Below, piece by piece: positions 24,001-27,000 of a stretch of DNA of 64,000 bases. The stretch lies in the NCBI RefSeq assembly GCF_050320075.1, contig NZ_CP190019.1; one strand, 5' to 3'. The position numbers are program-made. Each line of letters opens with the position of its first letter. Position 1 is the first letter of the stretch. The stretch is from Escherichia coli. GTDB lineage: Bacteria; Pseudomonadota; Gammaproteobacteria; Enterobacterales; Enterobacteriaceae.

Positions 24001-27000
24001 TGTATATTTAGCCATTATATTGAATCCTGTGAAGTAAACGGCGACGGCTCAAAATTTTATCAAACCTAAGATAATTCTACCATCAAAGTTAATAATTTGA
24101 ATTTATATGACGGCTCTATGGGGGGGTAAAAATCCCCGTGCAGAGAGGCGATTTTCAGAGTTGAAAACGTCGTCGTTAAGAACACCAAAGTCAGTACCAC
24201 CAACCCGGAAAGTAGCTTCATGCACCGGGACAACAGCAGTTTTGGTGTCCGAAATCGTACAATTCTGTACATCTACGCAAGGAAATGTACGGAAGTAAGC
24301 CAAATGGTTATCGGACGGTCGGAACATTTCGTACAGCCTTTACGTTCAGTGAGTTAGCTGGCCTAGATGTAACCACTCGTTCAACTCAATTCTCTTAGCG
24401 TGGGAAAATTTCCGTTTTCCAAGCGGCCCCCTCAAGCGGACCCCTTATAGTACAATAATTTTCGATATCCAAACTGCCCCCAATTACATCTCCAGTCTCT
24501 GGCAGCAGAGATCATATATTTCCATTGCCGCCGTAGCCACGATATTCTGGCTATTCACAAAAACAATTTAGCCCCAAAGCGCAGTAAAAAAGTACACTAT
24601 GAAGGTGTATGATACCTTCATAGTGCTTAAGTAATTATGAGTAATATAATCTGTGTAAACTACTAATTGCTTCACCGTCAGTGATTAAATGCGTAGCTGT
24701 TCCTTGTCTTATATAATACCTATTTTCAAAATGACAGACTTCTCCGACACTTTTTATTTCGATTTTTAAAACATGCAGTCCTTCATATGAACATAATGAA
24801 ATATCTTTTAGTATTTGTTGTTTCAAAGCCTCATTAAAATTAAATGATTCTATTTTTTGTTTTATGAACAGAAAGTAATTATCTATGTTTTTTGATTGAA
24901 TTACAGCTTCATGATCAATTCCATTGATATAATAGCCATTGCACTCAATAGGGGTAACACCATATAAAGTCTTAACTCTGTCTGCCGTAGCTTTGGTATC
25001 GGAAACACCAACTAAAATATAACCATTAGATTCTCTACCGATGTTATTTATGGCGACAGCCGTTTGGACTATATTAATGAAACATTCTTCGTCTATTTTA
25101 TTCTCGCCTGAGAGAATAAATAATCCCTGTTTGGTAATGACTCCAACTTATTGATAGTGTTTTATGTTCAGATAATGCCCGATGACTTTGTCATGCAGCT
25201 CCACCGATTTTGAGAGGCACTGTTGCAAATAGTCGGTGGTGATAAACTTATCATCCCCTTTTGCTGATGGAGCTGCACATGAACCCATTCAAAGGCCGGC
25301 ATTTTCAGCGTGACATCATTCTGTGGGCCGTACGCTGGTACTGCAAATACGGCATCAGTTACCGTGAGCTGCAGGAGATGCTGGCTGAACGCGGAGTGAA
25401 TGTCGATCACTCCACGATTTACCGCTGGGTTCAGCGTTATGCGCCTGAAATGGAAAAACGGCTGCGCTGGTACTGGCGTAACCCTTCCGATCTTTGCCCG
25501 TGGCACATGGATGAAACCTACGTGAAGGTCAATGGCCGCTGGGCGTATCTGTACCGGGCCGTCGACAGCCGGGGCCGCACTGTCGATTTTTATCTCTCCT
25601 CCCGTCGTAACAGCAAAGCTGCATACCGGTTTCTGGGTAAAATCCTCAACAACGTGAAGAAGTGGCAGATCCCACGATTCATCAACACGGATAAAGCGCC
25701 CGCCTATGGTCGCGCGCTTGCTCTGCTCAAACGCGAAGGCCGGTGCCCGTCTGACGTTGAACACCGACAGATTAAGTACCGGAACAACGTGATTGAATGC
25801 GATCATGGCAAACTGAAACGGATAATCAACGCCACGCTGGGATTTAAATCCATGAAGACGGCTTACGCCACCATCAAAGGTATTGAGGTGATGCGTGCAC
25901 TACGCAAAGGCCAGGCCTCAGCATTTTATTATGGTGATCCCCTGGGCGAAATGCGCCTGGTAAGCAGAGTTTTTGAAATGTAAGGCCTTTGAATAAGACA
26001 AAAGGCTGCCTCATCGCTAACTTTGCAACAGTGCCACATCCGTTACCTTTTCTCCGCCGGGCTAAGCGGCATGCTGCTGATCACAGCTGCGCTGCTGTTT
26101 CGCATGCTGGGCGTGTGGATGAGTACGCTGGGTACAGACCTATCCCGGAAGGAGCGCCTGTTCTGCATGATTGCCTATCTGCCCAAGGCAACGGTGCAGG
26201 CTGCAATCGGCGCTATTCCGCTGGCGATGGGGCTTGGCAGTGGGGAAACCATACTTGCGGTGGCGGTTCTTGCCATTATACTTACAGCGCCGCTGGGGGC
26301 GTTGGGCATCGAGCTGAGCTATAAAAGGCTGCTTCAAAAACAGCAGTCGTAGTGTGCTTGTTCGATAGAACAAAAGAGGAACGAAAAATATTTTTCGTTC
26401 CTCTTTTTTAGATGATTTGCCTTCTGATTGGCTTATCCATTCTTTTTTATCAAGTATATAAGTTCTGTTCCGATGGTCTTTTTATCCTCAATCTCAAACT
26501 CGGCGGGCAAGCCGCCCTCGAACCATGCGGCGTAGTTCGCCTCCATGCCTTTTCCACGCCCGCCTAAACTACGCGTGGGAAAGCTGACAGCCATGCGCGG
26601 GGTATTGAGGGATTGTAAAAGTGCCATGGCAGAACCGGCCTGCTCCCGCTCCAGCAGGGGCAAAAGCTTAAAAATCAGCGCCAGGTCGCCGGCTTCGGCG
26701 GGCGGCGCACACAGCACATCCTGCAGGGCAAAGGTAAAATCCCAATCTTTTTCCCTAGCAAAGGGGGTGATGACATCCCCCAATCCCTGGTGGATATCAC
26801 AGCCCCACACGGATGCAATGCCGCGCTCGTATAGCGCCAAGGGGTTAAGACCGCAGGCGATATCCAGCACGCGGCGGGGAGTTTCGGCTGAAAAGATAAA
26901 ATCGTACAGGGTATCCAGCTCGGCCAGTCGCTCCTTGGTGGAGGCATGCAGCGACAATGCCTTTTTTACATCGCCCGCAGAAAGCGCGGCGGCAGCAGCC

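What the first reader, a model, noticed from the sequence alone, without database searches (positions are those of the whole stretch)
24635..25215. IS1 split into two fragments 13.7 kb apart, one truncating an AT-rich gene of unknown function
The IS1 right end (25133-25215) and left end (38959-39431) are both minus-oriented, are separated by the whole second resistance mosaic, and have non-matching flanks. The right end cuts into a 30-percent-GC gene whose remaining 165 codons have no start codon. This points to IS1 insertion, then Tn2 insertion into IS1, then IS26-mediated rearrangement. The identity of the truncated gene is unknown.
Basis: seen in the sequence. Interest (0 to 1): 0.35.

Follow-up and report, generated by a model that had tools for sequence, protein, structure and literature searches.

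The report
Known IS1 scar in plasmid defence gene
The AT-rich fragment is the last 165 codons of a 590-codon plasmid gene of the DUF262–Schlafen type, a class recently linked to phage defence, which IS1 cut at the classic R100 resistance-region site; the same scar sits in hundreds of sequenced plasmids, so it is ordinary.

Summary
Window 25133-25215 is IS1 bases 686-768 and 38959-39431 is IS1 bases 1-473. Both are minus-oriented and identical to R100's IS1. IS26 abuts the first piece and a Tn2-type terminal repeat abuts the second.

The gene is now identified. The 165-codon remnant (24635-25132, minus strand) is the 3' end of a 590-aa IncFII backbone gene, WP_001262767.1. It has an N-terminal DUF262/GmrSD_N domain and a C-terminal Schlafen/AlbA_2 domain, and it lies between pemK and stbB/parM.

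In R100 the two halves flank Tn2670 with a 9-bp duplication, AAACAGGGA. Removing the insert restores an open reading frame that is 100% identical to the intact gene in IS-free plasmids. The flanks do not match in the window because 1,366 bp next to the IS1 left end were later deleted. That stretch held the whole 5' part of the gene.

These junctions are common in PLSDB: 876 records carry the gene/IS1 junction, 763 the IS1/IS26 junction and 1,590 the IS1/deletion junction. Published FII-33/pHN7A8 studies already describe the delta-IS1/delta-Tn2/IS26 structure.

IS1 cut just after the invariant E-x4-D-F-K motif, so the remnant lacks both conserved acidic residues and is most likely dead. Whether one IS1 or two contributed the fragments cannot be decided. 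This is a known structure of low interest.

The parts
24635..25132 (-). 3' remnant of the IncFII DUF262-Schlafen/AlbA_2 gene (WP_001262767.1). It holds codons 426-590 plus the stop, and has no usable start codon.
   Evidence: Translation is open for 165 codons. Pfam SLFN_AlbA_2 scores 29 bits against a cut-off of 25.3. The fragment is 100% identical to nt 1276-1773 of the intact gene.
25124..25132 (.). Surviving copy of the 9-bp IS1 target duplication. It reads TCCCTGTTT on the + strand, which is AAACAGGGA (Lys426-Gln427-Gly428) in gene orientation.
   Evidence: The same 9 bp flank both IS1 copies of Tn2670 in R100. The 5' and 3' gene parts overlap by nt 1276-1284 in E. coli genomes.
25133..25215 (-). 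IS1 right end, positions 686-768, including IRR.
   Evidence: 100% identical to R100's IS1. The gene/IS1 junction occurs in 876 PLSDB records.
25216..26035 (+). IS26 (820 bp) that cut IS1 at position 685/686.
   Evidence: IRL at 25216 and IRR at 25986-26035, with a 240-aa transposase ORF. The IS1/IS26 junction occurs in 763 PLSDB records, including pC15-1a.
37547..38366 (+). IS26 copy that truncates the Tn2 tnpA remnant.
   Evidence: IS26 IRL at 37547 and IRR at 38317-38366. The same arrangement is seen in Shigella sonnei plasmid CP022460.1.
38367..38958 (+). Remnant of the tnpA end of a Tn2-type (Tn3-family) transposon. It ends with the 38-bp terminal inverted repeat at 38921-38958.
   Evidence: Sequence reading and an exact IR match. 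The literature names this junction delta-IS1/delta-Tn2/IS26 (PMC6052338). I did not test Tn2 against Tn1 or Tn3.
38959..39431 (-). IS1 left part, positions 1-473, including IRL.
   Evidence: 100% identical to R100's IS1.
39432..41815 (-). IncFII backbone resuming 92 bp upstream of where the gene's start codon used to be. By colinear mapping, pemK lies at about 39625-39957 and pemI at about 39959-40216. The junction at 39431/39432 is an IS1-adjacent deletion end point.
   Evidence: An ungapped 2,384-bp alignment to the IS-free backbone L013 526-2909 shows that L013 2910-4275 is missing. This exact junction occurs in 1,590 PLSDB records.

Best explanation
This is the much-rearranged descendant of the classic R100/NR1 resistance-region insertion site on an IncFII-type (pHN7A8-like, F33) plasmid backbone.

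Shown:
- The ancestral backbone ran repA, Rce1-like gene, pemI, pemK, a 590-aa gene, about 1.7 kb of spacer, then stbB and stbA(parM).
- The 590-aa gene encodes an N-terminal ParB-like DUF262/GmrSD_N domain and a C-terminal Schlafen/AlbA_2 domain.
- IS1 inserted into codons 426-428 of this 30%-GC gene and duplicated AAACAGGGA.
- In the window only the right-hand junction of that event survives: the gene's 3' 165 codons followed by the IS1 right end.
- On the other side, 1,366 bp of backbone directly abutting the IS1 left end are gone. That stretch comprised 91 bp upstream of the gene, its first 1,275 bp and the second duplicate copy.
- A Tn2-type transposon end abuts IS1 at base 473, and IS26 abuts IS1 at base 686.

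Inferred:
- The 1,366-bp loss was an IS1-mediated adjacent deletion (intramolecular transposition), which keeps the IS end and leaves no duplication.
- A Tn2-type transposon inserted into IS1 at 473/474, and IS26 insertion or deletion events then removed IS1 bases 474-685 and built the rmtB / blaTEM-1 / blaCTX-M-65 mosaic between the pieces.
- The relative order of the deletion, the Tn2 event and the IS26 events is unknown.

The remnant lacks its promoter, its start codon, the whole DUF262 domain and the first strand of the Schlafen fold, which carries the invariant Glu419 and Asp424. It is therefore a dead pseudogene fragment. The intact gene is most likely a single-protein anti-phage defence of the DUF262-Schlafen class, with the DUF262 part sensing nucleic acid and the Schlafen part acting as the nuclease. 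That function is inferred, not shown.
For: Reconstruction:
- R100 carries the 5' part (L004 6231-7514) before IS1a and the 3' part after IS1b. Both are flanked by AAACAGGGA. Joining them gives one 590-codon ORF.
- That ORF is 100% identical to the intact gene in IS-free plasmids. tblastn gives 146 PLSDB records with at least 80% coverage (a few are IS1-interrupted copies joined by the tool). An example is NZ_CP026579.1. The exact protein is listed in 4,033 blocks of the assembly index. All 10 places shown have the same pemI/pemK upstream context and five run on to stbB/parM.
- Plasmid 39R861-3 has a single IS1 at the same site.
- Homologues P0009 and P0012 read straight across the junction...YDFKQGFI....

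Deletion:
- The window lacks L013 2910-4275.
- pPA45B has a complete IS1 next to merR with an end point 19 bp away. This shows that deletions from this IS1 end have recurred.

How common the junctions are:
- 876, 763 and 1,590 PLSDB records carry the three junctions.
- 802 of 5,426 complete E. coli genomes carry part of the gene, but only 105 carry at least 80% of it.

Literature:
- All FII-33 plasmids share R100's IS1/backbone junctions, and the delta-IS1/delta-Tn2/IS26 structure is described (PMC8765060, PMC10654068, PMC6052338).

Protein:
- Pfam gives GmrSD_N at 70.9 bits and SLFN_AlbA_2 at 27.8 bits, above the 25.3 cut-off.
- AlphaFold confidence is pLDDT 88.5 for the full length and 95.4 for the C-terminal domain.
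- E419, K426 and E500 are invariant, and D424 is present in 36 of 37 sequences.
- Homologues sit alone as an extra gene in P2-like prophages between gpV and gpS.
- A DUF262-Schlafen fusion from E. coli UC4224 reduced T7 plating about 540-fold (PMC13056530).
Against: - The order of events, and the number of IS1 copies involved, cannot be read from the sequence.
- The 1,366-bp loss could also have arisen from a second IS1 insertion upstream followed by IS1-IS1 recombination.
- I did not verify that the transposon is Tn2 rather than Tn1 or Tn3.
- Defence activity of this particular protein is untested. I could not obtain the sequence of the tested E. coli protein (EcoSlfn7), so its relatedness is known only at the level of domain architecture.
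- PADLOC has no model for the Schlafen part. The fragment alone gave no PADLOC or NCBIfam hit.
Confidence: 0.9

Rival explanations
1. One reading: a single IS1 copy was split. In this view a plasmid with one IS1 in the gene (like 39R861-3) received Tn2 inside that IS1, and IS26 then deleted from the Tn2 side up to IS1 base 685. Both fragments would then be halves of one element.
For: The fragments do not overlap (1-473 and 686-768), share one orientation and are both 100% identical to the same IS1. Single-IS1 plasmids exist. The interior, judged from the annotation of the nearest relative, shows no catA1, mer or Tn21.
Against: R100's IS1a and IS1b are identical to each other, so sequence cannot tell one copy from two. 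The fragments lie exactly at the outer ends of Tn2670's two IS1 copies, and the literature derives this region from a structure formed within Tn2670 (PMC8765060). No PLSDB record has the reciprocal junction of IS1 469-768 with the bla-end repeat of Tn2.
Confidence: 0.4
2. The remnant is still an expressed small protein. RefSeq annotates it as a 167-aa 'RNA-binding / AlbA family DNA-binding domain-containing protein', translated from a non-canonical start inside the IS1 end and driven by read-out from IS1.
For: Database proteins such as P0001 (MTKQGLF..., 167 aa, 118 member sequences) are called this way. The frame is open back into the IS1 inverted repeat, and the remnant has no mutation relative to the intact gene.
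Against: The only 'start' is an ATT codon two codons into IS1. There is no ATG, GTG or TTG. The fragment lacks the first beta-strand of the fold (residues 423-426 in the model) and the invariant E419 and D424. The lack of mutations is expected for a recent clonal scar that is identical in 876 records.
Confidence: 0.05
3. The non-matching flanks come from two independent IS1 insertions, one in the gene and one 92 bp upstream of it, followed by IS1-IS1 homologous recombination. On this view there was no IS1-mediated adjacent deletion.
For: The end product is identical to that of an adjacent deletion. IS1 favours AT-rich DNA, and a prophage paralogue of the gene is also hit by IS1 at another position.
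Against: Several different end points are seen, all starting exactly at the same IS1 left end: L013 2909 in the window and 2928 in pPA45B. Other spacings appear among the hits. This is the signature of repeated adjacent deletions. I saw no record with IS1 at 2909/2910 and the gene still present beside it, though I ran no search designed to find one.
Confidence: 0.15

Closest known systems
IS1b/backbone junction of Tn2670 (the r-determinant) in plasmid R100/NR1 (NC_002134.1)
   Same: The junction is base-for-base identical across window 24000-25215. It has the same 9-bp target copy, the same IS1 orientation, and the same neighbouring stbB/parM genes.
   Different: R100 has complete IS1 copies, the catA1/Tn21 interior, and the 5' part of the gene beside IS1a. 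The window has 83 bp and 473 bp of IS1, a different interior, and has lost the 5' part.
The delta-IS1/delta-Tn2/IS26 boundary of the multiresistance regions of pHN7A8-type F33:A-:B- plasmids and pC15-1a
   Same: The IS1(83 bp)/IS26 junction is the same as in pC15-1a. The IS26/delta-Tn2/delta-IS1(1-473)/pemK junctions are the same as in CP022460.1 and pHNMPC32. These are described in PMC6052338 and PMC10654068.
   Different: Nothing material at the two boundaries. Differences lie in the resistance-gene content between them.
Prokaryotic Schlafen defence proteins of the DUF262-Slfn fusion class (EcoSlfn7 of E. coli UC4224; PMC13056530)
   Different: The sequence relationship to EcoSlfn7 was not determined and activity is untested. 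The window holds only the C-terminal 165 codons, without the motif.
GmrSD/BrxU/SspE (DUF262 with a DUF1524 HNH nuclease) and Menshen NsnA
   Same: The N-terminal ParB-like DUF262 domain has an invariant DGxQR motif. Foldseek best hits are BrxU 7p9k and SspE 6jiv. PADLOC hits are NsnA at 75.8 bits and PD-T4-2_A at 65.3 bits.
   Different: There is no DUF1524/HNH domain; the effector position is taken by a Schlafen domain. No NsnB or NsnC neighbours are present.

Membership tests
IS1 (IS1 family insertion sequence) | Terminal inverted repeats and 768-bp body matching IS1 | tested here: met
   Positions 1-473 and 686-768 are 100% identical to R100's IS1, and both IRs are present. The element is incomplete, because positions 474-685 are missing.
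IS1 (IS1 family insertion sequence) | 9-bp target site duplication flanking the insertion | tested here: not met
   In the window the flanks differ (TCCCTGTTT against GGAACTTCA). The duplication AAACAGGGA is present in R100. It was lost here with the 1,366-bp deletion.
Tn2670-derived resistance region at the R100/NR1 site | Identical IS1/backbone junction on the stb (parM) side | tested here: met
   100% identity over 1,216 bp, including the junction, with NC_002134.1.
Tn2670-derived resistance region at the R100/NR1 site | Identical IS1/backbone junction on the pemK side | tested here: not met
   The window junction lies 1,375 bp (in R100 coordinates) further towards pemK than in R100. This derived junction is itself present in 1,590 PLSDB records.
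Tn2670-derived resistance region at the R100/NR1 site | Tn21/catA1 interior | not tested
   Judged only from the annotation of the nearest relative, pHNMPC32. That lists rmtB, blaTEM-1, an IS91-family transposase, blaCTX-M-65 and IS26 copies, and no catA1 or mer.
Prokaryotic Schlafen (pSlfn), DUF262-Slfn fusion class | Schlafen/AlbA_2 domain (PF04326) by sequence | tested here: met
   The fragment scores 29.0 bits and the full length 27.8 bits, against a gathering cut-off of 25.3.
Prokaryotic Schlafen (pSlfn), DUF262-Slfn fusion class | Schlafen fold | tested here: met
Prokaryotic Schlafen (pSlfn), DUF262-Slfn fusion class | Conserved acidic catalytic motif at the start of the domain (E-x4-D/E) | tested here: not met
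   The intact gene meets this: E419 in 37 of 37 sequences and D424 in 36 of 37. The window remnant starts at K426 and lacks both residues, so the window copy fails this feature.
Prokaryotic Schlafen (pSlfn), DUF262-Slfn fusion class | N-terminal DUF262 sensor domain fused in the same polypeptide | tested here: not met
   The intact gene has it (GmrSD_N, 70.9 bits, residues 26-165). In the window it is deleted.
Prokaryotic Schlafen (pSlfn), DUF262-Slfn fusion class | Protects cells from phage, dependent on the nuclease residues | not testable with these tools
   Shown only for another DUF262-Slfn protein, EcoSlfn7 (PMC13056530).
GmrSD-family type IV restriction enzymes | DUF262 together with a C-terminal DUF1524 HNH nuclease | tested here: not met
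   DUF262 is present, but no DUF1524/HNH hit was found in Pfam. RefSeq's name 'GmrSD restriction endonuclease domain-containing protein' reflects only the N-terminal domain.
Menshen (NsnABC) | An NsnA-like gene followed by an NsnB ABC-ATPase gene and an NsnC effector gene | tested here: not met
   There is a PADLOC NsnA hit at 75.8 bits, but the gene stands alone in plasmid, prophage and chromosomal contexts.

The most novel reading that the evidence does not exclude
The intact 590-aa IncFII backbone gene may be an active single-gene DUF262-Schlafen anti-phage (or anti-mobile-element) defence. If so, the founding IS1/Tn2670 insertion of the R100 lineage knocked it out. Most IncFII-derived resistance plasmids would then have traded a plasmid-borne immune gene for their resistance region. 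About 88% of PLSDB records that keep this site (876 of 996) carry IS1 there. Only 105 of the 802 complete E. coli genomes that carry any part of the gene still hold at least 80% of it.
Probability: 0.4. Interest if true: 0.4.

Novelty: already known. Interest (0 to 1): 0.18.

Why it matters
For the finding as posed, it matters little. The IS1, Tn2 and IS26 junctions are standard published markers of R100-derived resistance regions, and epidemiologists already use them to trace IncFII/F33 plasmid lineages.

The one useful addition concerns the so-called 'integration hot spot downstream of pemI/pemK'. That site is in fact the coding sequence of a DUF262-Schlafen gene, a class shown in 2026 to include an anti-phage defence. 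The plasmid papers I could read describe the site only as a hot spot and do not name the disrupted gene.

If the intact plasmid gene is active, IS-free and IS1-interrupted IncFII plasmids would differ in the phage sensitivity they confer on their hosts. That is cheap to test.

Tried and rejected
- NCBIfam and PADLOC scans of the 165-aa fragment gave no hits.
- My first junction counts used 140-bp queries. They are unreliable because the tool joins nearby pieces into one place. I repeated them with 85-bp queries (60 + 25 bp) that can only match across the junction.
- The R100-type IS1a junction count (at most 433) was not repeated and is only an upper bound.
- A search for the reciprocal junction, IS1(768-469)/Tn2 bla-end repeat, found no true case. 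The only full-length hit is a different Tn3-family element in a Leclercia plasmid.
- Foldseek with the full-length model gave low TM-scores because the protein has several domains, so I modelled the C-terminal domain on its own.
- I tried to establish whether the experimentally tested EcoSlfn7 (E. coli UC4224) is this protein. No supplements are held. No record matching UC4224's replicon sizes appeared among the hits listed. This remains undetermined.
- Partridge et al. 2011 (AAC 55:4971), which I recall as the primary description of these junctions in pC15-1a-type plasmids, is not held. I cite nothing from it.
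Full report
**Observation**

Window 25133-25215 begins GGTAATGACTCCAACTTATTGATAG and is the last 83 bp of IS1 (positions 686-768) read on the minus strand. Window 38959-39431 ends ...AAGTTGGCAGCATCACC and is IS1 positions 1-473, also on the minus strand. Both pieces are 100% identical to the IS1 copies of R100, and no other IS1 sequence is present in the window. At 25216 the IS1 piece meets the IS26 left inverted repeat. At 38958 the other piece meets the 38-bp terminal repeat at the tnpA end of a Tn3-family transposon. The minus-strand frame 25132-24635 is open for 165 codons with no conventional start, and GC there is about 30%. The immediate flanks of the two IS1 ends differ.

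**Identity of the gene**

The 165-aa fragment hits Pfam SLFN_AlbA_2 (PF04326) above the curated cut-off, at 29 bits against 25.3.

A megablast of 24000-25215 showed that the backbone/IS1 junction is identical in R100 (NC_002134.1) and pC15-1a. In R100 this is the IS1b end of Tn2670, next to catA1. At the other end of Tn2670, IS1a abuts an ORF annotated 'DUF262 domain-containing protein' in the same orientation.

Reading the R100 sequence, the 9 bp before IS1a and the 9 bp after IS1b are both AAACAGGGA. When the insert and one duplicate are removed, the two parts form one uninterrupted 590-codon ORF.

This reconstruction is confirmed independently in four ways:
- tblastn finds the 590-aa protein at 100% identity and full length in IS-free plasmids. 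146 PLSDB records have at least 80% coverage, a few of them IS1-interrupted copies joined by the tool. The protein is annotated WP_001262767.1.
- The exact protein is listed in 4,033 blocks of the assembly index. In all 10 places shown the upstream context is Rce1-like / pemI / pemK. Five of them run on uninterrupted to stbB / parM.
- Plasmid 39R861-3 carries a single IS1 at the same site.
- More distant homologues read straight through the junction...YDFKQGFI....

**Why the flanks do not match**

I aligned the window to an IS-free backbone, L013. L013 526-2909 matches window 41815-39432, and L013 4276-7773 matches window 25132-21635. The window therefore lacks L013 2910-4275, which is 1,366 bp. 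That stretch comprises 91 bp upstream of the gene and its first 1,275 bp. It starts exactly at the IS1 left end.

This is what an IS1-mediated adjacent deletion leaves behind. That mechanism is an inference from the established behaviour of IS1. In pPA45B a complete IS1 lies next to merR, as IS1a does in R100, and ends 19 bp short of the window's end point. Other spacings appear among the hits. The deletion has therefore happened repeatedly and to different extents.

**How common the structure is**

I used 85-bp queries that can only match across a junction. The counts in PLSDB are:

| Junction | PLSDB records |
|---|---|
| Gene 3' part / IS1 right end | 876 (of 996 records that hold the 60-bp gene side) |
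| IS1(83 bp) / IS26 | 763, including pC15-1a |
| IS1 left end / deletion junction | 1,590 |

Among 5,426 complete E. coli genomes, 802 carry some part of the gene and only 105 carry at least 80% of it. The rest carry nt 1-1284 (R100 type) or nt 1276-1773 (window type). The 9-nt overlap between those two ranges is the duplication.

The literature already describes this arrangement:
- All FII-33 plasmids carry the R100/NR1 IS1/backbone signature junctions of a Tn2670-derived region (PMC8765060).
[quoted passage not shown] The window's nearest relatives are pHN7A8-type plasmids carrying rmtB, blaTEM-1 and blaCTX-M-65.

**One IS1 or two**

However, R100's two IS1 copies are identical to each other, and the fragments sit at the outer ends of where those two copies lie. 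The reciprocal junction that a Tn2 insertion into a single IS1 would have produced is found in no PLSDB record. I leave this undecided, at roughly 40:60 in favour of two copies.

**What the intact gene is**

Domains and motifs:
- Pfam gives GmrSD_N/DUF262 at residues 26-165 (70.9 bits) and SLFN_AlbA_2 at residues 420-573 (27.8 bits). No DUF1524/HNH domain is found.
- PADLOC hits cover only the N-terminal region, with NsnA of Menshen and PD-T4-2_A.
- The family is large: 1,447 hits, mostly 585-610 aa. It is spread across Enterobacterales, Vibrionaceae, Aeromonas, Chromobacterium, Burkholderia and others.
- In a 37-sequence alignment the DGxQR motif of the ParB-like domain is invariant. E419, Y423, F425, K426, Q427, G428 and E500 are also invariant. 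D424 is D in 36 of 37, and position 470 is always D or E.

Structure:
- AlphaFold models are confident, with pLDDT 88.5 for the full length and 95.4 for residues 405-590.
- Foldseek links the N-terminal part to BrxU, SspE and ParB/Noc.

Genomic context:
- Homologues stand alone.
- In Enterobacter ludwigii and E. coli they sit as a lone opposite-strand gene between gpV and gpS of P2-like prophages.
- In Aeromonas the homologue sits beside recBCD, and in Chromobacterium among housekeeping genes.

Published function for the class:
- A 2026 study reports that DUF262-Slfn fusions make up 1.8% of 5,930 prokaryotic Schlafens.
- It also reports that one from E. coli UC4224 (EcoSlfn7) lowers T7 plating about 540-fold.
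- In the same study a different Schlafen, RorSlfn5, cleaves tRNA through E15 and D20, an E-x4-D motif (PMC13056530).

I therefore infer that the intact plasmid gene is a single-protein defence with a DUF262 sensor and a Schlafen nuclease. I could not determine how close it is to EcoSlfn7.

**Consequence for the window copy**

The IS1 duplication AAACAGGGA encodes K426-Q427-G428. IS1 therefore entered immediately after the invariant E419-x4-D424-F-K motif. That motif lies on the first beta-strand of the domain, residues 423-426 in the model.

The window's remnant has no promoter, no start codon, no DUF262 domain and neither E419 nor D424. Some RefSeq records annotate a 167-aa 'RNA-binding domain-containing protein' (MTKQG...) here. 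By my reading of the sequence, that annotation relies on an ATT codon inside the IS1 inverted repeat. I consider the remnant a dead fragment, with about a 5% chance that it is expressed and does anything.

**Verdict**

The open question about the gene's identity is answered, and the structure is already known and very common. The only mildly new point concerns the textbook R100 resistance-determinant insertion site. It lies inside a Schlafen-type candidate defence gene. Most descendants have lost that gene's function.

Noticed in passing
L008 (NZ_MN423365.1, Leclercia adecarboxylata pL21-1NR) about 5766-6062, compared with window 38958/38959: A different Tn3-family transposon, with terminal repeat GGGGTTTGAGGGCCAATGGAACG, abuts IS1 at exactly the same base (...CACCGAATAC|GGGG) as the Tn2 end in the window. 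It lies on the other side of the AATAC pentamer. This points to two independent Tn3-family insertions at one 5-bp site inside IS1, which may be a target hot spot.
   Followed up: partly
L027 (E. coli CFSAN064035 chromosome NZ_CP031134.1) 3001-5553; also hit H215: The chromosomal P2-prophage paralogue of the gene is also interrupted by an IS1. It is about 68% identical in protein to the plasmid gene and lies between gpV and gpS. The insertion is near nt 500 of the gene, a different position from the plasmid insertion. AT-rich members of this gene family therefore seem to be repeated IS1 targets.
   Followed up: partly
window 41816-44514: A 2.7-kb IS66-family element with three ORFs (225, 115 and 523 aa) is inserted in the backbone between repA and the Rce1-like gene. 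It has an 8-bp target duplication, seen as L013 526-533 being present on both sides.
   Followed up: partly
window 15440-17107: An ORF for a group II intron reverse transcriptase/maturase (TIGR04416, 385 bits). It is presumably the group II intron reported as a lineage marker of pHN7A8-type F33 plasmids (PMC8765060, PMC6052338).
   Followed up: no
window 173-14035: This is a first resistance mosaic. It holds an MFS efflux gene and mph(A) (1408-2313), aph(3')-Ia (3290-4105) and aac(3)-II (11525-12409). Three IS26 copies lie at 2383-3202, 4243-5062 and 13216-14035, in the opposite orientation to the four IS26 copies of the second mosaic.
   Followed up: partly
L025 (pPA45B, NZ_CP021289.1) 2540/2541: A complete IS1 next to merR (Tn21), as in R100, has its backbone junction 19 bp from the window's junction (L013 2928 against 2909). 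Other hits show spacings of about 40-290 bp. This indicates a series of independent IS1-adjacent deletions eating towards pemK.
   Followed up: partly
window 44515-46633 compared with L005, L004 and L013: The repA / copA / repA2 region is only 89-95% identical to the R100-type and other IncFII plasmids, whereas the pemIK side is 99% identical. This fits the published idea that the F33 replicon acquired the R100-derived segment by homologous recombination (PMC8765060).
   Followed up: no
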